This document shows, one piece after another, positions 1 to 44,851 of a stretch of DNA of 64,000 nucleotides. How positions within the stretch are numbered: position 1 is the stretch's first letter; every line of letters begins with the position of its first letter. Made by a program: the position numbers and the translations under genes. Below the pieces are notes generated by a model. That model made no database searches and had not been told where the DNA came from. It was given only the letters and a program-made list of their open reading frames with translations. Source of the DNA: Gammaproteobacteria bacterium (lineage in GTDB: Bacteria > Pseudomonadota > Gammaproteobacteria > Chromatiales > Chromatiaceae); contig JAJRUY010000320.1 in NCBI GenBank assembly GCA_024277555.1, positions 12,388-76,387 on the forward strand, written 5' to 3'.

Positions 1-1441
1 CACCGAGACCCACCACTGCGGTACGGAAGACCTCCGGGTGGGTGTTGAAAATGGCTTCGACCTGATCTGCGTACAACACTTGGTCGGCCATGCGAACCCG
101 CTGTGAGGTCCGACCGCAATACCACAAGTAGCCATGGGTATCGAAGTAACCGGCGTCACCCATGCGGTGCCAGACCAGGCCATCGGTATCGGTGATTTTT
201 GCCAGTTGTGTTTTGTCGGGATGTTGCCAGTATGTGTCGGTGGTCGTCGGGCCGTGCACAACGATTTCACCGGTGATGCCGACCGGCAGTTCTACGCTGC
301 CTTCAAAGGTTGCAACTTCGGTATCCGTAACTGGAATGATTCTGATTTTATTCGGTGCCACCGGCCGCCCCACACAGGTGCCTTCACCACTGGCAGTACG
401 TTGTTCTACTTCCCGGTTCAATTCTGTGCCGGAAACGCTGGCGACCGGCAAACACTCCGTAGCGCCATAAGGAGTGAAGATTTCGGCGCCTGTCGGCAGG
501 GCTGCTTGTAGCCGTCGCACAGTAGAAACCGGCATTGCTGCACCGGCAGAGATAACCCGGCGCACGGAGGGCAGGTGAATTTTTTCTGCTTCCATATACC
601 GGCCCAACACGTTCAGCAAAGCCGGTGAGCCAAAAATGTTACTTACCGAAAAGCGCTCAATAGTTTGCACCAGCAACCTTGGATCTGCTTTGGCCGGTCG
701 GGTGGGATCCATAAAGGGCACCACCGTGGTCATGCCCATGGCCGGATCAAATAGCGCAAAGGGTGGAAATGTTGGCAAGTCGACTTCGCCTTCACGGATG
801 TCGAAAGCCGCTTGCAGCATTTCAACCTGGGCCACAAAGTGGCGGTGCCGGTAAACCACGCCCTTGGGAATGCCGGTACTGCCTGAAGTAAACAGTATGG
901 CAGCGATTTCATCAGCTTGTGTTGCCGCCAGTGCCACAGCGGAGTTTTTTTGCCCGAGTTTGAGCAGTTGCCGCGTACTCAAGCCACCCCAGCCGAGCCG
1001 TGGGCCGGATGTAACCAGCTTGACTTCGGGTACCCAGCCAAGCACCTTGCGCGCCACGTGGGCGCGGGTAACACCAATGAACGCTTCCGGGCTGGCTTCA
1101 GCCAGGCAGGTTTTTAATGGCCTGGTACCGATGCCAGGATCAATCAATACCGGAATCGCGCCGGCTTTGAACAGCGCAAAAAACAGCGCAAAAAAATCCA
1201 GCCCCGGGGTCAGCATCAGCGCTGTGCGCGTGCCGCGGCCGATACCGTACTCGATAAAGCCCCGCGCATATCCATCTGACAGTTCATTGAGGTCCGCATA
1301 GCTTATTGACGCATATTGCAGTTGGCCACTGCGTTTTCCGGTAGGGTAGTGAAGGGCAATATTGCTACCTTGCCGGTCAGCCTGACTGACCAGTGCTGCA
1401 GCGATATTGCAGGACTCAGGCTGCTGCAGTTCCAGCTTCAT
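1..1441 (-). CDS. oleC: Olefin beta-lactone synthetase OleC (AMP-binding enzyme); partial, 3' end runs off the window
   Basis: Not in the ORF track. Manual translation from ATG at 1441 gives MKLELQQPESCNIAAALVSQADRQG...; the adenylate-forming motif LFTSGSTGIPKGVVYRH lies near 850-897. Directly downstream of oleA-oleB. Confidence 0.88.
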   Translation of the reverse strand, partial: MKLELQQPESCNIAAALVSQADRQGSNIALHYPTGKRSGQLQYASISYADLNELSDGYARGFIEYGIGRGTRTALMLTPGLDFFALFFALFKAGAIPVLIDPGIGTRPLKTCLAEASPEAFIGVTRAHVARKVLGWVPEVKLVTSGPRLGWGGLSTRQLLKLGQKNSAVALAATQADEIAAILFTSGSTGIPKGVVYRHRHFVAQVEMLQAAFDIREGEVDLPTFPPFALFDPAMGMTTVVPFMDPTRPAKADPRLLVQTIERFSVSNIFGSPALLNVLGRYMEAEKIHLPSVRRVISAGAAMPVSTVRRLQAALPTGAEIFTPYGATECLPVASVSGTELNREVEQRTASGEGTCVGRPVAPNKIRIIPVTDTEVATFEGSVELPVGITGEIVVHGPTTTDTYWQHPDKTQLAKITDTDGLVWHRMGDAGYFDTHGYLWYCGRTSQRVRMADQVLYADQVEAIFNTHPEVFRTAVVGLG

Positions 1442-2342
1442 TGGCGTCCAGAAAATCACTGATTGCCTGGCTTGCTGCCGGCCCGGCATCTTCCAGGATG
1501 TAGTGGCCACAATCCGGGAAACTCAGAACCCTGGCCTGCGGCAGGATCTGTTGCCACTTGCGTAAGAAATGCAGGTCAAAGACAAAGTCTTTTTCACCCC
1601 ATACCAACAGGCAGGGCTTGTCGATGAAGCCCGGCAGGAGCGCTTCAGTTGACGCCACGATGCCCCAGGCGCTATCTTCCGGTGACAGCGGAATATCCTG
1701 TACAAAGCGCAGGGTTGCAATGCGGTTGGCCCAGGAGTCATAGGGCCCGGTGTAATTTTTACGAACCTCTCTGCTGACCGGTTTCTTGAACGCTACACGG
1801 GCCGCAAGGGCTGAAAATGCGTTCATTCCCTGTACCAGCAATGCACCCAGCGCAGTGTTGCGCACCAGCCACAGGGCAGGGGGAAAATTCTTTTCTTTTG
1901 GCAAGGGGAATGCTGCTGTATTGGCCACCACCATGCTGGCGATTTGTTCCGGCCGTTCTGCGGCCCAGCCAAAACCAATCATACCGCCCCAGTCATGCAC
2001 AACAAGGTGAATGGGTGCGCCGGGCTGGATATGCACCATCAGTGCGCCAAGGTCTGAAATACGCCGTGTGAGGGTGTAGGGGTAGCGACTGCTGGCGGGC
2101 TTGTCTGACAGGCCGCAACCAATATGGTCGGGCACGATACATCGAAAGCGGTCGCGCAGTGCCAGTACCAGGTTACGATAATAGAATGACCAGGTCGGGT
2201 TGCCGTGGACCATCAGCACCACAGGTGCATCTTCCGGTCCTTCATCCAGAAAGTGCATACGCTCGCCGTCAATCTCCAGCCAGTTGGACTTAAATGGATA
2301 GAGTTTTTCTGAAGGTTTGAACACCCTGTGATTAATACTCAA
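1416..2342 (-). CDS. oleB: Beta-lactone decarboxylase OleB (haloalkane dehalogenase-like alpha/beta hydrolase)
   Basis: HGNPTWS, nucleophile motif VVHDWGG, C-terminal GHYILED; lies between oleA and oleC. Confidence 0.9.
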   Translation of the reverse strand: MSINHRVFKPSEKLYPFKSNWLEIDGERMHFLDEGPEDAPVVLMVHGNPTWSFYYRNLVLALRDRFRCIVPDHIGCGLSDKPASSRYPYTLTRRISDLGALMVHIQPGAPIHLVVHDWGGMIGFGWAAERPEQIASMVVANTAAFPLPKEKNFPPALWLVRNTALGALLVQGMNAFSALAARVAFKKPVSREVRKNYTGPYDSWANRIATLRFVQDIPLSPEDSAWGIVASTEALLPGFIDKPCLLVWGEKDFVFDLHFLRKWQQILPQARVLSFPDCGHYILEDAGPAASQAISDFLDANEAGTAAA

Positions 2343-2364
2343 TGAATAGGTTTGGACAGAAGCT

Positions 2365-3381
2365 TTACCAGACGATTTCCGCCATGGAACAATTCAGCCC
2401 GGAGCCGATGCCAAGCAAGGCGACACGGTCGCCTTGCTTGATTCTGCCCATTTCGACGGCCTTCGCCAATGCAATCGGTACAGCCGCGGGGCCAATATTG
2501 CCCAATTCCGGGTAGATGCGACAAATTTTCTCCGGATCCAGCCCCAGCAACTGCATAAGCGAATCGGTATGCGCCTTGCTGACCTGGTGAATAACAAATT
2601 GATCCAGTTCGTCCACGACCCAACCAAGCGCTTCGCGGGCGGCGCCGAAAGTTTTGGTCGCGAGTTTCAGGCCTTCTGTCAGTAGCACCCGGGTATCAGT
2701 GACCATTCTGTCCATCTGGCCATAGCAGAGCTTGTTGAACTCCGTAGCAGCACGGGTCACGCTGCCAACGTAACTGTGGCCCTCGGGGGCCAGTTCACGT
2801 CGCGACATCACCATTGCTGCTGAGCCGGAACCCAGGGTCAGAGAGGCAAATTCCGCACGAAATTGCACTTCTTCCACGCCGGGGTGCAACAGGCGTTCAA
2901 TGGTGGCCTCGGTAATTGGCCGGCTTGATTCGCCATCGACGACCAGCGCGTATTCAATCTCTTCTCGTTCGATCATGCGTGCTGCGATGTCCATGCCGTT
3001 TAAAAAGGCCAGGCAGGCATTACCCACATCAAAATTGACACATTTCTCACCGAGGCCAAGGTTGCCATGTACCAGGCAAGCAGTAGAGGGCTCGAGGTAG
3101 TCACGGCAGACTGATGTATTGATCAACACGCCGATTTTACTGCGGTCTATTCCAGCTTCTTCAATGGCTTTTTCTGCTGCCATGGTGGCTGATTCTGAGG
3201 GTTGGGTACCGTTGTCCCAGAACCGCCGGGCCTTGATCCCGGAAATTTCTTCCAGCAGGCCGGGCCGAATGCCCAGGCGTTCCATTGTTGGCCGCAAGCG
3301 TTCTCCGATTTCAGCAGAGGTAACCCTTACAGGCGCTTCGATAGCTGCAAGTGATTGAATAACAACATTTTTAAATTGCAT
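2365..3381 (-). CDS. oleA: OleA acyl-CoA condensing enzyme (FabH/thiolase-like)
   Basis: YLEPSTA (catalytic Glu), NACLAF (Cys), HQVS (His), GNIGPA, LLGIGSGLNC; 338 aa, typical of OleA. Confidence 0.92.
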   Translation of the reverse strand: MQFKNVVIQSLAAIEAPVRVTSAEIGERLRPTMERLGIRPGLLEEISGIKARRFWDNGTQPSESATMAAEKAIEEAGIDRSKIGVLINTSVCRDYLEPSTACLVHGNLGLGEKCVNFDVGNACLAFLNGMDIAARMIEREEIEYALVVDGESSRPITEATIERLLHPGVEEVQFRAEFASLTLGSGSAAMVMSRRELAPEGHSYVGSVTRAATEFNKLCYGQMDRMVTDTRVLLTEGLKLATKTFGAAREALGWVVDELDQFVIHQVSKAHTDSLMQLLGLDPEKICRIYPELGNIGPAAVPIALAKAVEMGRIKQGDRVALLGIGSGLNCSMAEIVW

Positions 3382-26966: not shown

Positions 26967-27698
26967 ATGCAATTTACAATTTCAGCGCGCGGTAAGGCGT
27001 CAGCAATACCCATCCAGCGGTTTATCAAGAATAATTATTCTCAAATACCACTGGAACAAATTGATAGCTTCTTTGGTTTCGCAGAGGCATCCACGCTTTA
27101 CGGCGGGCGTTTTTTCGCCAACACGGAACTCAGTCGCTATGATGTCCGTGCCTTGTACATGATGAACATCAATGTAAGGTTGCCGGTCACAAATCATTAT
27201 GTGACACCAGATGAATATGAGGAAAATCAACCTTTCCTGGAAAAATACCACCGTCCCGGCAATTCACTGATCATCACCAACGATGAACTGGCTGGGTGGA
27301 TACGCGGTGACTTTCCGGATTATCGACTGGAAGCCAGCGTCATTAAAAACCTACACACGATGAAAAAGGTGGAAGAAGCTTTTCGAATTTACGATACCGT
27401 GATCTTGCCGATGGCATCCAACGATGATGAAAAACTACTCAAGTCGATCGACAACAAGAAAAATGTCACGCTGTTTGCAAACGCAGGGTGTGCCTATACC
27501 TGTCCTGCAAAGATTTGTTACCCCAGTGTTTCAAAAGCTAACAAAACTGGTGACCAAAACCTTTTCCAATGTTCCCGGAAACTTAAAGAGCGCAACACCA
27601 TCGGTATGTATGATTTTGATTTGGAATACCTGCAATCACTTGGCTTTGAGCGCTTTAAACTATTGCGTCCACGTCAGGGTGATATGACGGGGTACTAG
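26967..27698 (+). CDS. U32 peptidase-like protein (putative Fe-S hydroxylase)
   Basis: LEASVI, FANAGCAYTCPAKIC...FQC (four Cys) and GFERFKLLR resemble U32-family hallmarks. Assigned by eye only. Confidence 0.55.
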   Translation: MQFTISARGKASAIPIQRFIKNNYSQIPLEQIDSFFGFAEASTLYGGRFFANTELSRYDVRALYMMNINVRLPVTNHYVTPDEYEENQPFLEKYHRPGNSLIITNDELAGWIRGDFPDYRLEASVIKNLHTMKKVEEAFRIYDTVILPMASNDDEKLLKSIDNKKNVTLFANAGCAYTCPAKICYPSVSKANKTGDQNLFQCSRKLKERNTIGMYDFDLEYLQSLGFERFKLLRPRQGDMTGY

Positions 27699-28258
27699 TT
27701 CGAACGGCCCAATTCCTCTGGTGGAACATAATCGAAAATAAATGTAATGCGGCTTTCTTCGCCCTTGTTCATCACGCTGTGTCTTTTCTGATTATTGATT
27801 TCATAAGCCTGGCCAGGTTGCAATTGGTGCGGCCGGCCATCGATCATGAAGCGGACCCTTCGATTGGTCGTGATCGGAACGTGTATCCGGTGACCTTTGT
27901 GAAAAGACGGGTGGGCATCAACATGCGGCATTATTTTGCCACCAGCGAGTAATTTTGCCGCCATGGCCCGGATGATGGTGCCACCCGGTGGGTAAGCCCT
28001 ACGAATGATCTCATGCATGACGGGCAAGGCTACTTCAGCGAGACGGTCCCAACCGGGCTCCTTGCAAATATCGACCTCGGGCCAATCTTCGAGTTTTGTG
28101 AAAACCAGTGCAATTGTTTCAGTTTGCCGGTGGACTTCATAGGTTTCCTGGCGATAATGGCTTTCATGCCAGGCGTCATTTTCCTGGGCCAGGATGGTTT
28201 TGGATAAAGCCGTTATATCAATCGGACCGAGTTCGCGGATACGGCCTTCAATATTCAT
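27695..28258 (-). CDS. Aspartyl/asparaginyl beta-hydroxylase domain protein (Fe(II)/2OG dioxygenase)
   Basis: IMPHVD (HxD), RIHVPITTN, EINNQKRHSVMN..RITFIFD. Confidence 0.88.
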   Translation of the reverse strand: MNIEGRIRELGPIDITALSKTILAQENDAWHESHYRQETYEVHRQTETIALVFTKLEDWPEVDICKEPGWDRLAEVALPVMHEIIRRAYPPGGTIIRAMAAKLLAGGKIMPHVDAHPSFHKGHRIHVPITTNRRVRFMIDGRPHQLQPGQAYEINNQKRHSVMNKGEESRITFIFDYVPPEELGRSN

Positions 28259-28410
28259 TGGATTCCGTGAAGCCGCTGTTTTTCTCTAACCCAGCATATT
28301 CCTTTACATTAAAGGTCATTATAATTCATCTGATTTTTGTGTCTTTCTCTATGTAGTATAAATGGTGACCTTGTGAACCGACCTTTAATCATCAACACCA
28401 AGGGCAGGAA

Positions 28411-30447
28411 ATGCAACATCAAGTGATATCGAAATCTGTTTTTGCTGAAGCACTGGAATTGATAAATTCCGGCCAACTGGCAGCAGCAGAACGTATCTGC
28501 AATAGCACTATATCGCAGTTCCCCAACGACCCCAACATCAACGGACTGCTGGGTGCATTGCTGGTGAAGATGAAAAAATATGAAGAAGCGGAGAAACTTC
28601 TTAACAAGACCATCGAACTGGCACCAACTTTTGCCAAACCCCATGAGGATCTGGGTTTCGTGTTGCTTGAACTGAACAGACCCCATGAAGCCATTGAAGC
28701 GTTGAAGAAGGCAACCCGACTTGATCCCAAACTCAACCTGGCTTTTCTAAACCTGGGCAAGGCCCTCGCCGCCGTTGGAAAAGGCAAGGAAGCAGACGCA
28801 GCATTTGAGAAGTCATTTGAATTGTCACCTGAACACAAACTGCTTGCCAGGGCAGTTGAATGTCTGCAGGCAAACCAATTTGAAGAAGCGGAAAGATTAA
28901 GCCGGGAAGTCATCAGAATTAACCCTGGTAACGTCGAAGCACTGCGCCTGATGGGAAGAATGGCGGCACGACAAAACAGGGTTGGGATCGCGGAAAGACA
29001 CTATCGCAAGGCACTGGAAGTCGCACCGGATTACACCGGTGTCATCGTTGATCTGGCAAAATTGCTTCGCGATGACGACCGTTTTGATGAGGCCATTGAA
29101 TGCTTCAGGCAGGCGATTGAAATGGAACCGGAAAATGCCCGGTTCCATGATTTGCTTGCAAACGCGCTGGCGCCAGCGGCATTGACGTATGAGGCGATCG
29201 AGGCTCATCAAAAAGCCATTGATCTAGATCCAAAGCTGGCCATTGCATGGCTCGGCCTGGGACATATGTTAAAAACGGTAGGCCGGCAGGATGAAGCTAT
29301 CGAGGCGTATCACCAGTGTTACGAGTTGGAACCGGACATCGGTGCCATCCAATGGAGCCTTGCCAACCTCAAAACCTACCACTTCACGGATGAAGAGATT
29401 AAAGATATGGAGGCAAAGATCGAACGTGACGATCTGGGGGCGGAATCGAAAGTGAATTTCTTGTTCGCACTCGCCAAGGCCTGGGAAGATAGAAAAGAAT
29501 ATGGCCGGGCATGGCGCTATTATGATGAGGGCAATTCATTGCGTCGTATCCAGGAATTATACGACCCGGTCGACACCGAGGTTATGAATGACATGATCGT
29601 TGATGTTTTCAGCCCTGAACTTCTGCAAGCGAATGCCGGTGCCGGATGTGCCGACCCATCACCCATATTTGTCATAGGCTTGCCGCGCTCCGGATCTACC
29701 TTAATTGAACAGATACTTGCCAGTCACAGCCTGGTGGAGGGCACGAGCGAATTACCTTACGTAACGCGTATTACCAGATCACTCAATAGAAACCGTGCCG
29801 ATGGTATCAATTATCCTAAGGCGGTTGCCGAACTCGATGAGAAGCATTTCGCAGCCATGGGCCAGGATTACGTCAGTTTTTGTCAAATGCACCGAACCGA
29901 AGGAAAACAGTATTTCATCGACAAAAACCCAAATAATTTTCCTGCCGTCGGATTTATTCACCTGATGCTGCCCAATGCAAAAATAATTGATGCCCGCCGT
30001 CATCCAATGGATGCCGGTTTCAGTTGTTACCGGCAATTATTTGCCAAGGGTCAGCCGTTTACTTATGACCTGACTGAAATTGGGGAATATTATCTGCAAT
30101 ATCAACGCATGATGGATTACTGGCATGAAGCCCTGCCAGGACGGGTATTAACCATGCAATACGAAGAAGTCGTCGCTGATTTTGAAAATCAGGTGCGTCG
30201 TCTGCTTGAATACTGCGGTCTTCCATTTGAGCAAGGCTGTCTGAATTTTTATGATACGGATCGCCCGGTTCGAACCGCCAGTTCGGAACAAGTACGTCAG
30301 CCTATATATTCTCAATCTGTAGGCAGATGGCGTTTATATGAACAGCACCTGGATGAGCTGAAGGAAGTTCTGCAGCCCTTGTTGCCCCGCTACGAAAAAT
30401 ACGAAGAAATCGGAAATGAGAACAAAGTCAAAGACAACGACCAGTGA
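28411..30447 (+). CDS. TPR-containing sulfotransferase
   Basis: TPR repeats; PIFVIGLPRSGSTLIEQIL (5'-PSB loop), FIDKNPNNF, RRHPMD, TASSEQVRQPIY. Confidence 0.92.
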   Translation: MQHQVISKSVFAEALELINSGQLAAAERICNSTISQFPNDPNINGLLGALLVKMKKYEEAEKLLNKTIELAPTFAKPHEDLGFVLLELNRPHEAIEALKKATRLDPKLNLAFLNLGKALAAVGKGKEADAAFEKSFELSPEHKLLARAVECLQANQFEEAERLSREVIRINPGNVEALRLMGRMAARQNRVGIAERHYRKALEVAPDYTGVIVDLAKLLRDDDRFDEAIECFRQAIEMEPENARFHDLLANALAPAALTYEAIEAHQKAIDLDPKLAIAWLGLGHMLKTVGRQDEAIEAYHQCYELEPDIGAIQWSLANLKTYHFTDEEIKDMEAKIERDDLGAESKVNFLFALAKAWEDRKEYGRAWRYYDEGNSLRRIQELYDPVDTEVMNDMIVDVFSPELLQANAGAGCADPSPIFVIGLPRSGSTLIEQILASHSLVEGTSELPYVTRITRSLNRNRADGINYPKAVAELDEKHFAAMGQDYVSFCQMHRTEGKQYFIDKNPNNFPAVGFIHLMLPNAKIIDARRHPMDAGFSCYRQLFAKGQPFTYDLTEIGEYYLQYQRMMDYWHEALPGRVLTMQYEEVVADFENQVRRLLEYCGLPFEQGCLNFYDTDRPVRTASSEQVRQPIYSQSVGRWRLYEQHLDELKEVLQPLLPRYEKYEEIGNENKVKDNDQ

Positions 30448-35203: not shown

Positions 35204-36754
35204 ATGAATAGTGAAAATTCCACCGAAGATCTTGAATTTGACCAAATCATCATTGGCTCTGGTTTTGGCGGTTCGGTCAGTGCGCTACGCCTCAGTGAAA
35301 AAGGTTACAAAGTACTGATTCTGGAAAAAGGTAAACGCCGGAAAGACCACGAATATCCAGAAACTAACCTGGATTTTAAAAACTACGTTTGGGAACCTAA
35401 GCTGGGCATGAAAGGCTCGTTGCAAATGACTTACACCAGCAAAGCCACCATTTTGCATGGCGTAGGTGTCGGCGGTGGTTCACAAATTTATGCCAATGTG
35501 CACCTTATCCCTGAGGACAATGTTTTTCAGTCGCCTGCCTGGACCCAGACACGAGATGACTGGAAAGATACTTTAGCGCCTTACTATGCCCTGGCTCAAC
35601 GTATGTTAGGCACTACAAAGAATACTTACACCAATATTGCCGACGATGCTTTTAAACAGGTTGCAGAATCCATGGGACTGGGCGATAGCTATAAAACTGT
35701 GTCCACCGGGGTGTTTTTCCCTCAAGAAGATAACCAGCGGGGCAAGACCTTTAGCGATCCTTATTTTTCCGGTGATGGTCCTGATAGAGCAACTTGTAAG
35801 TTTTGTGGTAGCTGCATTATTGGTTGCAGGGATAATGCCAAAAATACCCTGATTAAAAATTATCTGTATTTTGCTGAAAGAAATGGTGTCGAAATTCGCC
35901 CGGATTCTGAGGTAAAACGCATTGAGCCATTGGAAAAAGAGGGTAAAAAAGACGGCAGCAGTGGATATGTTGTGACCGTTTTTGATAGCACTGATAAGCG
36001 TGAATATCGTATTAAAGCCCGTGGTGTGGTAATTTCTGCAGGCGTTTTGGGGACAGTGCCTTTACTGTTGAGAATGCGGGATCAATTTAAAACCCTACCA
36101 AATATTTCTTCATGGCTGGGTCAGCAAGTACGCACTAATTCTGAAACCTTGACCACAGCGAATGATACCAAGCATACGGTGCATGATGGTGTTGCTATCA
36201 GCTCGATGATTTCTGTTGATGATGATACCACCATGGAAATCAATCGTTTTCGTAAAGGCTCCGATGGCACCTGGTTACTATTGCCTTATGTTCCCATGGT
36301 ATCTGGCGCCGGTTTTACACGTTTCCTTAAGTTTTTAGGCAATACTATTGCTCACCCGGTTAAAACTTTCAAAGTGCTCCGGTCAAAAGGCAAAGCGGAA
36401 AAATCCATTCTCTTTTTGGTGATGCAAAAATCTGAAGCGTTTATTCATCTGGAGTGGCGCAGAAGATGGTATCGCTTGTTCAGAAAAGATATTTCCGCAG
36501 TACAAAAGAAAGGCGATACCCCGCTTAAGGTAGTTTTCCCTAAAGCGGAAGAAGCCACCCGACGCTACGCTGAGATTTTAGGTGGTGAGCCAGGCTCTGC
36601 GCTACCTGAAATTATTCTCGGTACACCTTTCACGGCACATATCATTAGCGGTGTTGCGATTGGCAAAGACAGTGCACATGGGGTGGTCGATGAATCGGGC
36701 GAACTTGTTAAAGTTATCAATCAACATGACAAATTCACTGAGGTCACCGCTTAA
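35204..36754 (+). pseudogene. Cholesterol oxidase-like (ChoD) GMC enzyme, C-terminally truncated
   Basis: IGSGFGGSVSALRL, GVGGGS.IYAN, CKFCGSCIIGC, TAHIISG and GVVDESGE are present. The expected ...DGS....GVNPSLTI tail is absent; the ORF ends about 15 codons after 36706. Confidence 0.7.
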
Positions 36755-38469: not shown

Positions 38470-39092
38470 GATAGTTCTCTCTTGCTGCCGGCAGCCCTGA
38501 GGCAAAGCCGACAGATCTCTTCAGTTAAATGTTTCTGTTGTAATGGGTTAAAGCTCTGGGCAGTCGGGGCCAGCGGGCCCACCAGGGATTCCGCCAGCAT
38601 TCCAACCATTGCTGCGGCGGCTATACTGGTGTCCATGGCTACGAACTCGCCACTGCTGACACCTTCTGCAAGGAGGGCCTGGAATAATTCTGCGTAGGCC
38701 CGGCGAAAATTGAGACGCTCCTGCTCCAGGGCCGGGTCCAGGGGTTCAGCAATCAGGGCATAGGCCAGGTGTCGACCACGGATAGCCCGACTGGCAAAGT
38801 TACGAACTGTGTTTGCCAATCGCCCGGTCGCGTTGCCGCTACCCTGCGTAAATTTCCTGACCTCATCTACCTCCCGCTGGGAGGCATTGCGGAACAATTC
38901 AGTACACAGTGCGGTTTTATTGTGGAAATGCCGGTACAAACTACCGGTGGCGACACACGCATCCGCTGCAACTACGCTCATGGACACCGCAGCAAAGCCC
39001 CCCGACAACACTCGCTGCTGTGCGGCGTCCAGTATGCGTTGCCGGGTGCTCAACCGGTGTGCTTCTGTCTTTGCTGTCGCTCGATATGCCAT
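38466..39092 (-). CDS. TetR-family regulator
   Basis: MAYRAT..., HTH VAADACVATGSLYRHF, LAYALIAEP. Confidence 0.9.
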   Translation of the reverse strand: MAYRATAKTEAHRLSTRQRILDAAQQRVLSGGFAAVSMSVVAADACVATGSLYRHFHNKTALCTELFRNASQREVDEVRKFTQGSGNATGRLANTVRNFASRAIRGRHLAYALIAEPLDPALEQERLNFRRAYAELFQALLAEGVSSGEFVAMDTSIAAAAMVGMLAESLVGPLAPTAQSFNPLQQKHLTEEICRLCLRAAGSKRELS

Positions 39093-39149
39093 AATATGAA
39101 CTGTGATTCATTACTTTCTGTAAGAATTGAACCACAATTCATATTATGG
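39089..39149. promoter_or_regulatory. Candidate tandem TetR operator (long inverted repeat)
   Basis: CCATAATATGAACTGTGATTCA (39089-39110) and TGAACCACAATTCATATTATGG (39128-39149) are inverted, 20/22 matched. Each arm contains TGAA-N6-TTCA, and the left arm covers the tetR ATG. Confidence 0.65.
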
Positions 39150-40125
39150 TGCAAGTGAGTGGGAACGAAACCCGGGAATCCGGACTGGCTCTGCGTTGTG
39201 TCCTGGTCCGTTCTTTGCACCAGCGCCCCGGTGGCATGCCGTACCAGCGCTGGAAGGCATTGTTGAAAGCGGCCTGGTCAGCGTAACCCAGCATGGCGGC
39301 AACCTGGGACAGAGTTGCACGGGTTTCCAGCAGGTAATCCACGACCAGGTCCTGACGCGTCCGGTCGACAATACCACGAAAGTCAGCCCCCAAACTGCGT
39401 AGTTCCCGCTGCAGTGTCCGTGGGTGCATAGCCAGGACATCGGCGACATTTTGCAGGGTACATCGCCCCGTAGGTAATAACTGATGTACCAGTAGCACGA
39501 CCCTGCGGAAGCGGTTGTCTCCGGTCCCGCCAAGATGGTCTCTCACGTAGTTAACCGCAATATTTCGGAACTCGGGATTGGCAGTAGGTACCGGCTTTGC
39601 CAACACCTCTTTTGGCAAGGTGAAGGCATTCAGTGAACCATCAAAATCCAGGTGAGCGCCAAAGCGGCGTTGCAATGGGCGCAAATCGTCCGCCCTGCAA
39701 TGCGTGAACTGAATATGCCCGGCGTAAAACCCCGGCCCAATCAGCATATTGAGGATGCTTTGGCCTATACCCATACTCAGCTCGTTGATCTGCCGCCTGG
39801 CGCGCAGTCCGGGAATCAACACCTCGAAAGTCAGCAGTGTGTGGCTCGAATCCGCGTCTACCAGTTGCACTGATGCGGCAGTGGTGTGTACATAGAAAAA
39901 GGTCGTGATAGCCCTCAGCGATGCAGCCACCGTATCCGAATAGTGTGCAATCAATGCCGCCGGGCCCAAAATATTCAGATCCTGGTAATAGGAAAGTCGT
40001 AAGCCGAAATCCGGGCATTCCAGCTCACGCGCACAATTTTCCAGCAACTCGATCATCGCCGCATAAGAAATCCGGTTGTCCGGCGAGGCCAGCGCAACAG
40101 GGTCTATGCCGTTCCTCCGCAGCAA
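39139..40125 (-). CDS. AraC-family regulator (OruR/Arabinose_bd_2 type), probably 5'-truncated
   Basis: DFGLRL..LG.., C-terminal HTH LAMHPRTLQREL..LGYADQAAFNNAFQRWYG. Begins at TTG with no RBS and an in-frame stop 11 codons upstream. Confidence 0.75.
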   Translation of the reverse strand: MLRRNGIDPVALASPDNRISYAAMIELLENCARELECPDFGLRLSYYQDLNILGPAALIAHYSDTVAASLRAITTFFYVHTTAASVQLVDADSSHTLLTFEVLIPGLRARRQINELSMGIGQSILNMLIGPGFYAGHIQFTHCRADDLRPLQRRFGAHLDFDGSLNAFTLPKEVLAKPVPTANPEFRNIAVNYVRDHLGGTGDNRFRRVVLLVHQLLPTGRCTLQNVADVLAMHPRTLQRELRSLGADFRGIVDRTRQDLVVDYLLETRATLSQVAAMLGYADQAAFNNAFQRWYGMPPGRWCKERTRTQRRASPDSRVSFPLTCTII

Positions 40126-40163
40126 GCGCAGAAAATATTTTCCCCCATCAAACCGTCAAGTCA

Positions 40164-42626
40164 TTGGGACAAATCGGCTACGAAGAAGACAGCTGGGGTG
40201 TCGGCGTTTCCGGCGTGGTGAATGACCCTTCGCCGTTTCCGCGGATCAACCGATTAAGGGATTGGTACCTCGACGAATGCCCTTGTACCATTGATGCTGA
40301 GAGGGCTGTGTTGCTTACTGAAGCCTACAAAAAATTTGAGAACGAACCCCAACTGATCAAGGTCGCCAGAGCATTGGCCCATGTGATGCGCAATGTTACG
40401 CTGCACATTGTTGATGGTCAGTTGCTGGTCGGCGACAGCGCTGCACCACCCAAGTCCTGCCCGATCTATCCGGAATTCTCCTACTCGTGGATCGCTAACG
40501 AATTGAGTGAGTTTCCGCCCCGCGAACGGCCGAACAACCGCTATGACTACAACGACGACACCGAGAGACAATTGCTGGAAATCACGGATTACTGGCAAGG
40601 CAAAACGGTATCCGACAGCATACTTGACCGCATGACGCCGGAAGAGATGAAGGGCGACTTCATGGGCATTATGCTGTACTCCACGAGTCTCTATCACATC
40701 GCTGGCGTGGGACACCTGGTTCCCGACTTCGACACGCTCTTAAAGAATGGTTACGGGGGCTTGCAGCAGGATGTACAGGACCGGCTCAACGCCCTCACCG
40801 GTGATGACCCGGATACAGAAGAACAACGCCATTTCTACCATGCCCAACTTATTACGCTGGACGCGACGATTGACTACATCAGGCGATACGCCGCGCTGGC
40901 CCGGGAAAAAGCTAATACTGCAGGTGGCCAGCGCCGCGATGAACTTCTGCGAATGGCGGACAATATCGAATCGATCTCCACCAATCCGCCGGAGACTTTC
41001 TGGCAGGCATACCAACTGGTGCATTTCGCCTGGAGTATCATCCAGATCGAGTCCAACGGTCACTCGGTCTCTTGGGGCAGGTTGGACCAGACCTTGTATC
41101 CATTCTTCCTCAAGGACCTGGCCCAGGGCACTGCCAGTCGCGAGTTCATGCAGGAAGTGATCGAATGTCACGCGCCGCTGTGTGCCAGTTTCATGAAACT
41201 ACGCGATTGGGTAACCACCCAGGCCAACAGTGGACGGGGACTGGGCACAATGACAGTGACGCTGGGGGGTGTGGACGCCGACGGCAATGACGCAAGCAAC
41301 GAGCTTTCCGGCATGTTCATAGACATGGTCGCGCACACTCGTCTGGGATATCCCTGGACTGCTGCCCGCTTCCATGAGAACACACCGGAGTGGTTCTCGG
41401 CTAAAGTGGCCAAGGCCATGCGCATGGGCACCGGCGAGCCGAAGATTTTTAGTGACCAGGTCATCATCCCAACGATGAAGCTGCGGGGTATTTCCGATGA
41501 AGACGCCCACAATTATGCCATTGTCGGTTGCGTTGAATTGAGCGTTCCCGGACGAGAGTATGGCTGGCACGATTCAGCTTATTTCAGCATTGCACGGGTG
41601 TTGGAGCTGGCGATTAATGATGGTTACGCCATCGGCCATGAGGACAAGGGCCGGCTGGGACCGGCAACCGGTAACCTGGAAGACTTTCAGTTTTTCGAAG
41701 AAGTGCAAAAAGCCTACGAGGAGCAAATGGCTTACTGGGTTGAGACGCAGGCCCGCAGCACGGACATCATGGATGACGTGCATCGTGAAATGAAACCGCT
41801 GCCCTATCTGTCTTTGTTGATTGAGGGGTGTACCGAAACTGGAAAAGATGTCAACACCGGAGCCGCTCCCTACAACTTCACCGGCCCCCAGGCGACTGGC
41901 GTTGCCTCAACGGCCGACAGTCTGGCCGTGATCAAGCAACTGGTATTTGAAGAGAAGAAGGTCAGCGCCGGCGAGCTGATGGACGCGATCAAGTCAGACT
42001 GGGAGGGGTTCGACGCCCTGTATCACCTGGTCAACAGCGACAAGATGCACCAGTACGGCAATGATGATGATTACGCTGATGAACTGGCCATCTACGCAAC
42101 GGATGTCTATTGTGACAAGGTTGAAGGAAGGCCGAACCCACGAGGTGGCATCTACCAGCCAGGCGTGTACACGGTCTCTGCCAATGTGCCTTTCGGTATG
42201 GTACAGGCGGCTTCACCTGACGGACGCAAGGCTCACGAGCCGTTGTCTGACTGTATCGGACCCGTTCACACCTATGTTGGTTCGCACGACCGCAAGGGTC
42301 CCACTGCGGTGATCAAATCCGCCAGCAAGCTCCACCAGCAGCGGATGTCCAACGGAACACTACTCAACCTGCGGTTCTGCCCCAGCAGTCTCTGCGGGGA
42401 AAGTGGTGTCAAGAACCTGGTGTCTCTGGCCACAGCCTACTTCAGGAAAGGCATGCACATGCAGATCAATGTTCTCGGCCGCGAATTGCTGGAAGACGCT
42501 TACCAGCACCCCGAGAAGTATCGTGGGCTCATGGTGCGGGTTGCGGGGTACAGCGCCCAATGGTCCGATCTTAGCGATGAACTGCGCCGGGATATCATGA
42601 CCCGAACAGAGATGTCCTTCGACTGA
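40164..42626 (+). CDS. Glycyl radical enzyme (PFL2/diol dehydratase-like); start codon unresolved
   Basis: Gly loop LMVRVAGYSA, Cys loop GCVE, GVGH, ESNGHS, GWHDSA, YTVSAN. The track start at 39921 lies inside the antisense araC gene. Confidence 0.9.
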   Translation: MGQIGYEEDSWGVGVSGVVNDPSPFPRINRLRDWYLDECPCTIDAERAVLLTEAYKKFENEPQLIKVARALAHVMRNVTLHIVDGQLLVGDSAAPPKSCPIYPEFSYSWIANELSEFPPRERPNNRYDYNDDTERQLLEITDYWQGKTVSDSILDRMTPEEMKGDFMGIMLYSTSLYHIAGVGHLVPDFDTLLKNGYGGLQQDVQDRLNALTGDDPDTEEQRHFYHAQLITLDATIDYIRRYAALAREKANTAGGQRRDELLRMADNIESISTNPPETFWQAYQLVHFAWSIIQIESNGHSVSWGRLDQTLYPFFLKDLAQGTASREFMQEVIECHAPLCASFMKLRDWVTTQANSGRGLGTMTVTLGGVDADGNDASNELSGMFIDMVAHTRLGYPWTAARFHENTPEWFSAKVAKAMRMGTGEPKIFSDQVIIPTMKLRGISDEDAHNYAIVGCVELSVPGREYGWHDSAYFSIARVLELAINDGYAIGHEDKGRLGPATGNLEDFQFFEEVQKAYEEQMAYWVETQARSTDIMDDVHREMKPLPYLSLLIEGCTETGKDVNTGAAPYNFTGPQATGVASTADSLAVIKQLVFEEKKVSAGELMDAIKSDWEGFDALYHLVNSDKMHQYGNDDDYADELAIYATDVYCDKVEGRPNPRGGIYQPGVYTVSANVPFGMVQAASPDGRKAHEPLSDCIGPVHTYVGSHDRKGPTAVIKSASKLHQQRMSNGTLLNLRFCPSSLCGESGVKNLVSLATAYFRKGMHMQINVLGRELLEDAYQHPEKYRGLMVRVAGYSAQWSDLSDELRRDIMTRTEMSFD

Positions 42627-42717
42627 AAGGGCTGCCAGGGTCATGTTTTGCGAAGTTCATGAAGCATCGGGAACCGGGAGCGCCGCACTGTCAGGAGAGG
42701 CGGCGCAGAACCACATC

Positions 42718-43695
42718 ATGATGACAGAATACGACACCGGGCTAACCGGAACGGTGTTCGACATCCAACGCTTCAGCGTACATGACGGGCCGGGTATCAG
42801 GACGGTGGTCTTTATCAAGGGTTGCTCCCTGCGTTGCATCTGGTGCAGTAATCCCGAGAGCATAAAACGAAGACCGCAGATCGGAATCTACCCGGACCGC
42901 TGTATCGGCACCGGTAAGTGTGGCGAGTGTCTTGAAGCTGTCCCCGCTGCCGACCTGTTAATCGTAAAGGAGCGCAAGGTCGTCGGCTTGAATACCGATC
43001 GACCGGAAGTTTGCCTGCCGTGCGCCGCAGTCTGCCCGACCGGTGCCCTCAAGGTCTGGGGCGAGAAGACCACGGTGGGTGAAGTCATGACAGAGGTGCT
43101 GTCGGACCGGCAGTTTTACGAGGAATCCGGTGGCGGCCTGACACTGTCTGGCGGAGAATCACTCATCCAGGCCCGGTTTGCCGTTGAACTATTGAAAGCG
43201 GCCCATGTGGAGGGGTTAAATACCTGCGTTGAAACCGCACTGAATTACGACGCAGAGGTTCTCGACAAGGCCCTTCCCTATATGGATCTGGCTTATTGCG
43301 ATTTGAAACACATGGACTCCGGGGCCCACAAACGCTTTACCGGCGTTGCCAATGAACGGATTCTCGAAAACCTGAAGAAAATCGTTGATTCAGGTACGCG
43401 CGTGGTCATCCGCATACCGGTTGTTCCCGGGCACAACGGTACCGAGGAGAACCTAAGGGCAACGGCAAAATTCCTGGTCGATGACATCGGTGGCAACGTG
43501 GTCCAGATTCAGCTGTTGCCGTTCCGCAAGCTGGGCGTTGAGAAATACGCTGCACTCGGAATGCCTTATCCAATGAAAGACTTTGAGGCACCGCCGCGCG
43601 ACGTATGGGAACGGGATATCCGGCAGTTCGCCGCTATGATGTCCGCCTACGGACTTAATGCAGTCGCCGGCTCCGGGGCCAGAATCCCAAAATAG
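42718..43695 (+). CDS. Glycyl-radical enzyme activating enzyme (radical SAM)
   Basis: FDIQRFSVHDGPGIRT, GCSLRCIWCSNPES (CxxxCxxC), ferredoxin-like insert CIGTGKCGEC...CLPCAAVCP, GGGLTLSGGE. Start could be 42643, 42718 or 42721. Confidence 0.93.
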   Translation: MMTEYDTGLTGTVFDIQRFSVHDGPGIRTVVFIKGCSLRCIWCSNPESIKRRPQIGIYPDRCIGTGKCGECLEAVPAADLLIVKERKVVGLNTDRPEVCLPCAAVCPTGALKVWGEKTTVGEVMTEVLSDRQFYEESGGGLTLSGGESLIQARFAVELLKAAHVEGLNTCVETALNYDAEVLDKALPYMDLAYCDLKHMDSGAHKRFTGVANERILENLKKIVDSGTRVVIRIPVVPGHNGTEENLRATAKFLVDDIGGNVVQIQLLPFRKLGVEKYAALGMPYPMKDFEAPPRDVWERDIRQFAAMMSAYGLNAVAGSGARIPK

Positions 43696-43768
43696 CCAGC
43701 TATCCAACCTCGCGCAAACGCATTAAATCACCGGCAGCCAATAGCAGCTCAAGGAGCAAAAGGAATTT

Positions 43769-44851
43769 TCAGGCAGTCGTTGCCTGGAGTATCTCAACTT
43801 TATAACCGTCCCTGTTTGACAAAAAATCCGCGCCCACCAACATGGAAGCGGTAAAATACCCCCCTCCCTTAGCATCATCTTCGGCCTTGAGCGCAATGGC
43901 GACCGCTGTTTCAGCGGTAAGATCATAAACACTGGGGCCGGTAACGGTCCCGCTGCACTCCCGGCCATCATCTGTACTCACACGTCCCCAAAACTCAGTA
44001 TGGGTGTTAGCGCGGGTTTTTTCATCCGGACCATCGTCAAGAAATTTTCCTGCCAGTGAAATCATCCATTTCTGCAGGCCAGCACTGGATAACAATCCAC
44101 GCATTGGATTTGATAATCGAGTCAACCAGCAGGCATAAACCGGCAGCGCCCCATAAACGATTGCACTGGGGATGCCGGTGGAAATTTGTGTGGTAAACAC
44201 ATCCCCCCAGGGCAGACTGACAGCCCACAGCTCAGAGCGTGGGAATGGGACCTTGCGAATACGGTAACCGAGCTTAACGTTTTTCAGCTTACCTTCTTCG
44301 CGTATCAGACAACCTTCACCAATACTCCCAATGGCTGTTCTGGTTGTTCCCATGCTGGGAAGCGTACCAAAGTCGAAGGCCAATTCCAGTTGGCTTGCAT
44401 CCGGTAATTTAAGCTTCAATAAAGCGGCCAGGCAATCCGTTGGTACAATGTCAAAGCCCACACCCGGGCATAATATGGTCTGTTGCCTGATGGCTGTATC
44501 ATGCCGCTGATGGGCAGCCTGGAAAACAGAGATCTCTCCGGTCACGTCAAAATAGTGCACGCCATGTTCCAGGCAGGCATCCATAATGGGTTCTGCCGTT
44601 ACCTCAAAAGGGCCCGCACAATTAATCAGTGTGCCGACACTATCAAGGTGGTCAGCGGTATCATTAACGCTAAACGCCCTTATTGGCAGATCATATCTCT
44701 CAGCAAGAAGTTTAAGACTGGCTTCGTTACGGCCGGCAAGGATTGGTTTTCGCCCATTCCTGAGCGCTTCATTTACAATTAACTCTCCGGTGTAACCATA
44801 GGCTCCATAGATGAGCCAGTTTTTGCGATCTGATATGGTCATAATATTCAT
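43769..44851 (-). CDS. Saccharopine dehydrogenase-like oxidoreductase (trans-acting enoyl reductase family)
   Basis: IYGAYGYTG, LAGRN, NCAGPF, HYFDVTGE, GFDIVPTD. Confidence 0.85.
   Translation of the reverse strand: MNIMTISDRKNWLIYGAYGYTGELIVNEALRNGRKPILAGRNEASLKLLAERYDLPIRAFSVNDTADHLDSVGTLINCAGPFEVTAEPIMDACLEHGVHYFDVTGEISVFQAAHQRHDTAIRQQTILCPGVGFDIVPTDCLAALLKLKLPDASQLELAFDFGTLPSMGTTRTAIGSIGEGCLIREEGKLKNVKLGYRIRKVPFPRSELWAVSLPWGDVFTTQISTGIPSAIVYGALPVYACWLTRLSNPMRGLLSSAGLQKWMISLAGKFLDDGPDEKTRANTHTEFWGRVSTDDGRECSGTVTGPSVYDLTAETAVAIALKAEDDAKGGGYFTASMLVGADFLSNRDGYKVEILQATTA

What the first reader, a model, noticed from the sequence alone, without database searches (positions are those of the whole stretch)
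40164..43695. Uncharacterised glycyl radical eliminase embedded in a lipid/steroid catabolic region
Seen: a GRE plus activase with a ferredoxin insert, and no microcompartment genes, small subunits or ADH partner nearby. Compared from memory with B12-independent glycerol/propanediol dehydratases, it keeps GVGH, ESNGHS, GCVE, GWHDSA and Y-x-VSAN. However, the substrate loop F(G/A)GY..(Y/F)QN is replaced by NSGRGLGTMT, and GCVEPQ becomes GCVELS. It lacks the adjacent Cys-Cys of PFL. Inference: 1,2-elimination chemistry on a bulkier, possibly hydrophobic substrate (long-chain 1,2-diol, alkylglycerol ether or steroid diol), giving an aldehyde or ketone for the nearby ALDH/SDR/beta-oxidation enzymes. 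That would be an anaerobic entry route in a ubiquinone-producing Gammaproteobacterium.
Basis: partly seen in the sequence, partly recalled or inferred. Interest (0 to 1): 0.78.

Follow-up and report, generated by a model that had tools for sequence, protein, structure and literature searches.

The report
Promoter-less HpfG-related radical diol dehydratase
This is an unstudied relative of a known oxygen-sensitive enzyme (HpfG) that likely removes water from a substituted glycerol, possibly a greasy one such as an ether lipid, but this copy lacks its start codon and control sequence and so is likely silent or mis-assembled.

Summary
The GRE and activase are real and the motifs are as described. 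HpfG has the same loop type (RNGRGFGG versus NSGRGLG). It is not HpfG: Arg363, Asn364 and Asn678, fixed in 121 HpfG-like sequences, are Asn, Ser and Ser in all 51 clade members, and no hpfD or tauE gene is adjacent. The recurring unit is a divergent AraC-GRE-activase cassette with a tandem operator. The lipid/steroid flanks are local, and a same-family genome has the cassette among housekeeping genes. In the window about 250 bp are missing at an 8-bp repeat (40119-40126), removing the operator, both start codons and the AraC N-terminus. This is a recent deletion (about 60%) or an assembly join (about 40%). The contig is also mis-binned. Most likely chemistry: dehydration of HOCH2-CHOH-CH2-X to 3-X-propanal. 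An uncharged, lipophilic X is favoured (about 45%; hydrophobic cap segment, no transporter), but this is untested. A steroid substrate is unsupported. The scan noted sister HpfG-like clades on other DNA before. A sister paralogue clade lacks the catalytic Cys.

The parts
39139..40126 (-). AraC-family regulator (Arabinose_bd + HTH_18), cognate of the cassette; its start codon and N-terminal part are missing
   Evidence: Pfam match starts at profile position 7; homologues have a longer N-terminus; a related contig in run X2 continues the frame past 40126
40119..40126 (.). 8-bp junction shared by the AraC frame and GRE codons 2-4; about 250 bp (divergent promoter, tandem operator, RBS, both starts) are missing here
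   Evidence: X2 contigs align 39993-40126 and from 40119, with loose ends of 121 and 151 nt; the latter ends in an RBS-like stretch plus ATG; spacer 39 bp versus 241-303 bp in 16 of 16 relatives measured; operator pattern 0 matches in the window
40119..42626 (+). Glycyl radical enzyme of an HpfG-related clade, codon 2 to stop (835 of 836 aa); start codon absent
   Evidence: only 3 departures at 414 conserved columns, 2 of them shared with its nearest relatives
41226..41255 (+). Substrate loop Asn371-Thr380 (NSGRGLGTMT); Asn371 faces HpfG Arg363 and, in the better-supported register, GD Phe333
41529..41537 (+). Cys472-Val-Glu474, the thiyl Cys and catalytic Glu (CxE motif)
   Evidence: aligned to GD Cys433/Glu435
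42546..42548 (+). Gly811, the glycyl radical site in RVAGYS
   Evidence: aligned to GD Gly763
42718..43695 (+). GRE activating enzyme (radical SAM, CxxxCxxC) with an HpfH-like ferredoxin insert
   Evidence: TIGR02494 335 bits, above its cut-off of 174; NF048008 HpfH 356, below its cut-off of 500; motif survey

Best explanation
The gene encodes a glycyl radical enzyme of an unstudied clade related to HpfG that likely dehydrates the terminal diol of a 3-substituted glycerol (HOCH2-CHOH-CH2-X to OHC-CH2-CH2-X), with X likely uncharged and lipophilic (for example an O-alkyl ether or an alkyl chain), and the window's copy lacks its start codon and operator and is therefore likely not expressed. Shown: the catalytic residues, the clade, the three-gene cassette, the operator in relatives and the missing segment. 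Inferred from GD/PD/HpfG precedent: the activase installs the Gly811 radical, and Cys472 abstracts H from C1. Glu474 deprotonates the C1-OH, while His200 and Asp486 assist loss of the C2-OH. The aldehyde product goes to general ALDH and beta-oxidation enzymes that are not linked to the cassette. Inferred: the AraC senses the substrate and activates only this operon through the tandem operator. Least certain: the identity of X.
For: Diol-binding set of GD kept: H164, H281, S282, C433, E435, D447, Y640 = H200, H316, S317, C472, E474, D486, Y685, with V687 as in PD and HpfG. Top Foldseek hits for the model of P0002 (90% identical; pLDDT 91.3) are PD 5I2G and GD 1R8W, TM 0.91-0.92. HpfG nests in the same 100%-supported superclade. 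The pocket aromatics of GD are replaced by Asn371 and Gly377, which makes room at C3. HpfG's Arg363, Asn364, Asn678 and Gln180 are replaced in 50-51 of 51 clade members. The cap segment has mean hydropathy +0.64 versus -0.64, or +0.99 versus -0.56 with non-overlapping ranges over 51 and 121 sequences. HpfG Lys357 becomes an invariant Trp365. No transporter, TauE or Fe-ADH family recurs beside the GRE in the 24 clade loci clustered (83 of the 236 ORFs were Pfam-scanned). The operator occurs once per genome, only before the GRE, in G061-G064 and G929. Lipid-type neighbours occur in some lineages: alkyl sulfatase (window, L006, L017), alkenal reductase plus acyl-CoA dehydrogenase (L007), and SDR/acyltransferase/abhydrolase genes beside sister-clade GREs.
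Against: No substrate was tested, and no model coordinates were available, so the pocket and channel geometry are inferred from alignment only. Arg374 (HpfG Arg366) and His194 (HpfG His185) are kept and could bind an anion. In HypD the Phe333-equivalent Ser334 binds a carboxylate (PMC7077986), so a polar Asn there also fits a carboxylate or phosphate. One MAFFT run placed GD Phe333 against Leu376 rather than Asn371. No lipid gene family recurs in more than three lineages, and several loci have only housekeeping neighbours (L002/L004, L003, L011, G929). Alkyl sulfatase and DUF1329 genes are multi-copy in these hosts anyway. No SCP2-type partner, which earlier notes report for sister clades, was found in my loci.
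Confidence: 0.45

Rival explanations
1. Same diol dehydration, but X is anionic: DHPS itself (about 0.1) or an analogue such as 3,4-dihydroxybutyrate, glycerate, glycerol-3-phosphate or a glycerophosphodiester. It would be anchored by Arg374, His194 and Asn371.
For: HpfG is the best profile (944 of 1000 bits). GRG Arg374 is kept in 50 of 51 clade members and His194 in 50 of 51. The HypD precedent shows a polar residue at this position binding a carboxylate. DHPS is reported in anoxic sediments (PMC13335735 passage). Host G063 also has an isethionate/DHPS-lyase-like GRE elsewhere.
Against: R363, N364, N678 and Q180 are invariant in 121 HpfG-like sequences and replaced in the clade. No TauE, HpfD or transporter is adjacent, unlike true HpfG loci L009 and L010. 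The best HpfD matches in five host genomes are 35-47% and unlinked. The cap segment is hydrophobic.
Confidence: 0.27
2. It dehydrates a small neutral polyol that diffuses in (glycerol, 1,2-propanediol, 1,2,4-butanetriol, erythritol).
For: The GD/PD diol residues are all kept, no transporter is needed, and PD/GD are the top structural hits.
Against: Only 37.7% and 39.6% identity to GD and PD, outside their clade. The Phe333/Tyr339 aromatics that close the small pocket are replaced. There is no linked ADH or microcompartment, unlike L030 and L031.
Confidence: 0.15
3. It is an ether lyase with HpsG-like regiochemistry: a radical at C2 of an alkylglycerol, with expulsion of the alkoxide to give hydroxyacetone plus a fatty alcohol.
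For: The pocket is roomy and hydrophobic, and the CxE chemistry allows either elimination (PMC13450708 section 5.6).
Against: His200/Asp486/Tyr685 are the terminal-diol dehydratase set, not the Gln/Arg set of the lyases.
Confidence: 0.07
4. On the state of this copy (independent of substrate): the junction at 40119-40126 is an assembly join across a coverage gap, and the cassette is intact and inducible in the organism.
For: The coding sequence shows no decay (3 departures at 414 conserved columns). All 16 close cluster members compared are full length (836-853 aa) with a Met start. Metagenome contig L026 shows three similar skips in 3.9 kb. Some assemblers join contig ends on short overlaps (recalled, not tested).
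Against: An 8-bp direct repeat is also the usual signature of natural deletion (own knowledge). In run X1 a contig about 88% identical joins 39701 to 43498, so a related population lacks the whole GRE (one contig, laid at 80% likeness, so it may come from another organism). This GRE was not found in 25 genomes of the nearest genus. The neighbouring choD-like gene is also cut short.
Confidence: 0.4
5. It acts on a steroid diol as part of the surrounding region.
For: A cholesterol-oxidase-like gene (486 of 850 bits) and a lipid-transfer-type thiolase (308 of 436 bits) lie in the window.
Against: Neither gene recurs near any clade member. The choD-like ORF is truncated. The residue set is that of terminal-diol dehydratases.
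Confidence: 0.02

Closest known systems
HpfG/HpfH, (S)-DHPS dehydratase and activase (NF048009/NF048008; Klebsiella oxytoca, Enterococcus)
   Same: Same superclade (100% SH-aLRT). Shares H/H/S/C/E/D/Y/V diol residues, the GRG-x-G loop, L192-Y193-H194, the N-terminal extension and an activase with a Cx5Cx2C insert.
   Different: 43-45% identity; 944 bits versus 1644-1658 for true orthologues. R363 to N, N364 to S, N678 to S, Q180 to S, K357 to W; hydrophobic cap. No hpfD, tauE or hpfXYZ. Gene order is AraC(divergent)-GRE-AE rather than AE-GRE-TauE-ADH.
B12-independent glycerol dehydratase DhaB1 (PDB 1R8W) and GRE 1,2-propanediol dehydratase (5I2G, 9RCO)
   Same: Best solved-structure matches (E 1e-178, 1e-174; TM 0.91-0.92). 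All catalytic and diol-binding residues are kept.
   Different: 38-40% identity and a separate clade. The pocket aromatics Phe333/Tyr339 are replaced by Asn/Gly. No ADH or microcompartment genes.
HpsG / IslA sulfo-lyases
   Same: CxE eliminase fold.
   Different: About 30% identity. Lacks the Arg/Gln/Arg sulfonate anchor: His200 and Ala196 at the inferred Gln187 and Arg183 positions. NF048011 scores 484 of 1000.
QhpR / CypR / GliR AraC regulators
   Same: Same Arabinose_bd subfamily (E 1e-53 to 4e-22).
   Different: All below cut-off (182/250, 89/500, 79/570), so the ligand cannot be transferred.

Membership tests
Glycyl radical enzyme, PFL2/GD subfamily | PFL-like barrel, Gly in RVxGY, thiyl Cys, linked radical-SAM activase | tested here: met
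   TIGR01774 712 > 678; TIGR02494 335 > 174; Gly811 and Cys472
GRE 1,2-eliminase | CxE motif on the Cys loop | tested here: met
   C472-V-E474, 51 of 51 clade members; definition in PMC13450708 section 5.6
GRE 1,2-eliminase | Glycyl radical formation and C-O cleavage in vitro | not testable with these tools
   needs EPR and assay
HpfG (DHPS dehydratase) | NF048009 score of at least 1000 | tested here: not met
   944 bits; full-length relatives 888-957. The cut-off is loose: several uncharacterised sister-clade proteins pass it at 1025-1180
HpfG (DHPS dehydratase) | Invariant R363, N364, N678, Q180 | tested here: not met
   121 of 121 HpfG-like sequences versus N/S/S/S in 50-51 of 51 clade members. 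Their role in sulfonate binding is my inference; the PNAS paper with the homology model was not held
HpfG (DHPS dehydratase) | Linked hpfD (Fe-ADH) and sulfonate exporter | tested here: not met
   present in L009 and L010, absent in the window and the 24 clade loci clustered
GD / PD | Clade membership and F333/Y339(F) pocket | tested here: not met
   separate clade; Asn371/Gly377 (the loop register differed in one alignment)
HpsG / IslA | Two Arg plus Gln sulfonate anchor | tested here: not met
   His200/Ala196 at the inferred positions; 484 of 1000 bits
PFL | Adjacent Cys-Cys | tested here: not met
   GCVE; TIGR01255 122 of 994
Expressible cassette of this clade | Tandem operator, RBS and ATG between the AraC and GRE genes | tested here: not met
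   operator in 17 of 17 AraC-bearing loci; 0 in the window; no + strand sigma70-like site in 38900-44100

The most novel reading that the evidence does not exclude
The clade is an oxygen-independent entry enzyme for 1-O-alkylglycerol ether lipids. Dehydration gives a 3-alkoxypropanal that can shed the fatty alcohol by beta-elimination, giving anaerobic ether cleavage. HpfG would be a derived, sulfonate-adapted offshoot (Asn to Arg) of this larger sediment family. In some genomes the enzyme would also be co-encoded with a catalytic-Cys-less paralogue acting as a pseudo-enzyme partner.
Probability: 0.2. Interest if true: 0.85.

Novelty: new variant of a known kind. Interest (0 to 1): 0.5.

Why it matters
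GRE clades without a function are a recognised gap (PMC13450708 section 7). This clade is spread across Gammaproteobacteria (Xanthomonadales, Steroidobacteraceae, Photobacterium), Spirochaetales and Desulfobacterota. It comes with a single-site operator and a cognate AraC, which gives a ready ligand screen. It also shows that the NF048009 HpfG label over-calls sister clades that lack Arg363. If X is an alkyl ether, it would supply an oxygen-free route for breaking ether lipids. The abstract of PMC7911779 (search listing only) names the monooxygenase AGMO as the only known enzyme for this. If X is a small anion or a polyol, it is one more GRE dehydratase. The window's own copy is a poor experimental target; intact homologues exist.

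Tried and rejected
The primary HpfG paper (Liu et al. 2020 PNAS, PMID 32571930) was not held by DOI or PMC id, so its homology-model residues and supplements were unseen and may bear on the Arg363 argument. My HpfG references are orthologues defined by HMM score and neighbourhood (L009, L010) plus 120 hits at 79-100% identity to L009, not the assayed K. oxytoca protein. G000 was rejected as a metabolic background: it holds second, divergent copies of ubiB, ubiE, hslU, hslV, dapF, hemC and fre (45-79% identity) on other contigs, so contig C271 is mis-binned. The 'relatives' search therefore says nothing about the host. No RNA holder was listed, and neither run is clearly the source; X1 has three short exact pieces at depth 2-3, none across the junction. 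Operator search for further regulon members found none. The TauE query found nothing in 5 genomes but had no positive control, so it is uninformative. The choD query found nothing in 5 relatives, so its truncation could not be compared. Order-level searches around G063 and G062 found no new clade loci (1 of 251 and 2 of 301 genomes). A HemC class search was too strict. The PlsA/R-like neighbour of L001 and L023 is one lineage (94% identical) and was dropped as evidence. DUF1302/DUF1329 upstream in L020 was discounted because the GRE has its own operator-like site there. No SCP2-like small partner was found. The Atlas search gave only generic GRE clusters. An E. coli blastn gave only short ybiW pieces. 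PMC9201399 was irrelevant (analytical ether cleavage). No paper on this clade turned up in searches (open-access library only).
Full report
Observation. The window holds a GRE (to 42626, +), its activase (to 43695, +) and a divergent AraC (39139-40126, -). The genes ubiE, ubiJ-like SCP2 and ubiB are in the window. HemC is 79% identical to proteins named Xanthomonadales/Lysobacterales and to genome G950. The contig is mis-binned: G000 has second copies of seven housekeeping genes at 45-79% identity, so G000 cannot serve as metabolic background.

Closest known enzyme. The best NCBIfam profile is HpfG, DHPS dehydratase (944 bits, cut-off 1000), well above PFL2-3 (712), HypD (520), CutC (490) and HpsG (484). 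Reference orthologues from Enterococcus raffinosus and a Fusobacterium score 1658 and 1644 and sit beside TauE and Fe-ADH genes. The window protein is 43-45% identical to 121 HpfG-like sequences, 37.7% to GD and 39.6% to PD. In a 36-row IQ-TREE tree (quick method, SH-aLRT only), HpfG nests within a 100%-supported superclade of mostly uncharacterised proteins. The window's clade (100%) and a paralogue clade (100%) form a 98% sister group to the rest. A FastTree on 121 rows agreed on the two clades being sisters, but did not put them basal to HpfG with support. The model of homologue P0002 (pLDDT 91.3; residues 1-12 disordered) matches PD and GD best (TM 0.91-0.92). HpfG has no solved structure (PMC13450708 section 5.6).

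Active site. Numbering follows the 836-aa homologues. GD H164, H281, S282, C433, E435, D447, Y640 and G763 map to H200, H316, S317, C472, E474, D486, Y685 and G811, each in 50-51 of 51 clade members. V687 matches PD and HpfG. HpfG has RNGRGFGG in 120 of 120 hits, and GCVEIS or GCVELS in 52 of 120. The fixed differences from HpfG are R363 to N371, N364 to S372, N678 to S688, Q180 to S189 and K357 to W365. Across 115 superclade rows, Asn stands at the 371 position in 113 and Arg only in the two HpfG references, which suggests that Arg is HpfG's derived, sulfonate-related change (inference). N371 aligns with GD Phe333 in phmmer and in the first MAFFT alignment, and it ends the matching helix in the model. 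A second MAFFT run shifted that register. Phe333's position is Ser334 in HypD, where it binds a carboxylate (PMC7077986 passages), so Asn371 does not exclude an anion, and Arg374 and His194 are kept. The segment I take as the cap helix, which forms part of the substrate channel according to PMC13450708 section 4.3, is the invariant DFMGIMLY. It is much more hydrophobic than HpfG's. No coordinates were available, so this is alignment-level evidence.

Context. I held 25 clade loci, several of them near-copies (roughly a dozen lineages). Seventeen have the divergent AraC; four have upstream DNA without it (L007, L020, L022, L025); one has too little upstream DNA; three begin inside the GRE. Of the 17 loci with downstream DNA, 16 have the activase next and L026 has a fragment of it. 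A tandem repeat (TGTCGCnAAATaCAA, 4-7 nt, TGTCGCnAATCaCAATA) lies between AraC and GRE in 17 of 17 AraC-bearing loci. It occurs exactly once per genome in G061-G064 and G929, with 0 in the reversed controls. I read it as the AraC operator of a one-operon regulon (inference). Beyond these three genes nothing is conserved. G929 (same family as the host, 97% complete) has the cassette between proAB/GATase-like genes and clpB, by ORF sequence; L011 has it near rne and dnaJ. Lipid-type neighbours appear in some lineages: alkyl sulfatases, an alkenal reductase with an acyl-CoA dehydrogenase, and an LldD-like/GMC/ALDH run. These families are multi-copy in such hosts. DUF1302/DUF1329 are tied to fatty-ester use in P. 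putida (bioRxiv 2020.07.04.188060 passages), but flank only the window and L020. Sister-clade GREs in Desulfobacterota lie beside SDR, acyltransferase, abhydrolase and SnoaL genes. GREs as such are no surprise in this host family: 13 of 64 f157 genomes matched, and the two of those matches that I scanned are HypD. The clade GRE was found in 1 of 401 genomes of the order and 0 of 25 of the nearest genus, so it is patchy and probably mobile.

The break. Close homologues are 836 aa and begin M-A-T/S-S-A-E-N-I-F-P. The window has A-A-S-A-E-N-I-F-P from 40119, with no ATG. The distance from the AraC anchor to the GRE anchor is 39 bp, against 241-303 bp in 16 relatives. In run X2 (a relative about 90% identical), one contig aligns from 40119 with an RBS-like stretch and ATG just before it. 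Another aligns up to 40126 and continues the AraC frame. The 8-bp overlap thus marks a direct repeat. The loose ends (121 + 151 - 30 + 8, assuming the two contigs adjoin; their depths 5.6 + 9.9 versus 15.3 fit) give about 250 bp lost. The operator is absent from the window (0 matches at up to 2 mismatches), and no + strand promoter-like site was found. TTG 40164 has no visible Shine-Dalgarno sequence. The coding sequence is undecayed, so the event is very recent or artefactual. An X1 contig that skips the whole GRE (39701 to 43498) suggests natural loss in a related population. Three skips in metagenome contig L026 show that such joins can also be serial and perhaps artefactual. I put it at 60:40 for a real deletion.

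Mechanism and rivals. By GD/HpfG precedent, the enzyme most likely dehydrates a terminal vicinal diol (about 85% for the chemistry). The enlarged C3 side and the kinship with HpfG point to HOCH2-CHOH-CH2-X. The lack of any transporter or exporter, the lost Arg and the hydrophobic cap favour an uncharged lipophilic X (0.45). An anionic X (0.27, DHPS itself about 0.1), a small polyol (0.15), ether lysis (0.07) and a steroid (0.02) follow. None is tested.

Earlier scan notes. Two notes (e1-6607516, e1-9867227) describe HpfG-related enzymes with an SCP2-like partner on other genomes and reach a similar lipid-diol guess. I found no such partner in my loci, and I count these notes as leads, not support. 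Look-ups by sequence and by place returned nothing.

Papers seen: PMC13450708 (outline, sections 4.3, 5.6, 7, passages); PMC7077986, PMC11489063, PMC9594981, PMC13335735, PMC9201399 and bioRxiv 2020.07.04.188060 (passages); PMC7911779 and PMC8151288 (search listing only); Liu et al. 2020 PNAS (nothing but the reference line). No paper on this clade appeared in searches.

Verdict. A new variant of a known kind: an uncharacterised, HpfG-related diol-dehydratase clade in a self-regulated three-gene cassette, represented here by a copy that has lost its promoter or was mis-joined. Interest 0.5. The ether-lipid reading has probability 0.2 and would merit 0.85.

Noticed in passing
P0059-P0062, P0064, P0065, P0067, P0068, P0071, P0081; L026:1728-3206: Sister clade (10 proteins, 52-55% identical to the window GRE) in which the catalytic Cys is Leu (GLVE/GLAE/GLIE) and RVAGY is YVAGY/YVTGY in 10 of 10. 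A new Cys is invariant at GD Tyr157, while H164, H281, E435, D447 and the Gly are kept. L026 shows GRE, activase and this paralogue in tandem. Six pairs share longest-contig lengths with active-clade proteins (co-location inferred, not seen as DNA). It may be a pseudo-enzyme partner or an enzyme with a relocated thiyl. Not present in the window's contig.
   Followed up: partly
G000 contig C271 (whole window): The contig is mis-binned: a 77-kb Xanthomonadales-like contig in a bin with N50 7.8 kb that has its own copies of ubiB/ubiE/hslUV/dapF/hemC/fre.
   Followed up: yes
window 35204-36754 (+): The cholesterol-oxidase-like GMC ORF stops about 40 aa short of the NF058674 profile and abuts the aidB 3' end; possibly a second break or an insertion edge.
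   Followed up: partly
L070 (G950:C19:92618-94972) and other g205/f157 genomes: Sediment-type Xanthomonadales relatives carry bona fide HypD (1185 and 1312 bits, cut-off 1100), in G950 just downstream of a probable P5C dehydrogenase ORF (read from sequence only); this suggests anaerobic hydroxyproline use in the family.
   Followed up: partly
L043:3507-9380 (G063:C19): An IseG/IslA-like GRE (1059 bits on NF048011, but apparently lacking the Arg anchors in the alignment to 5YMR) with activase, beta-keto acid cleavage enzyme, AraC and MFS genes in an uncultured gammaproteobacterium.
   Followed up: no
P0066-P0120, L057-L063, L008: Many uncharacterised sister-clade GREs pass the NF048009 HpfG cut-off (1025-1180 bits) yet lack Arg363, so the automatic 'DHPS dehydratase' label probably over-calls. 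L060 holds a tandem pair of them with different loops.
   Followed up: partly
run X1 laid on window 39701-43498: One contig (depth 20, about 88% identical) joins the middle of araC to the middle of the activase gene, i.e. a population without the GRE.
   Followed up: partly
window 2-3381 (-): oleA-oleB-oleC-like run (ACP synthase III, alpha/beta hydrolase, acyl-CoA ligase-like ORF), probably long-chain olefin biosynthesis; the ole names are recalled, the Pfam matches for two of the three are.
   Followed up: no
window 26967-27698 (+) and 27695-30447: A 243-aa ORF with no Pfam match even at E 0.01, next to an Asp/Asn beta-hydroxylase and a TPR-sulfotransferase.
   Followed up: no
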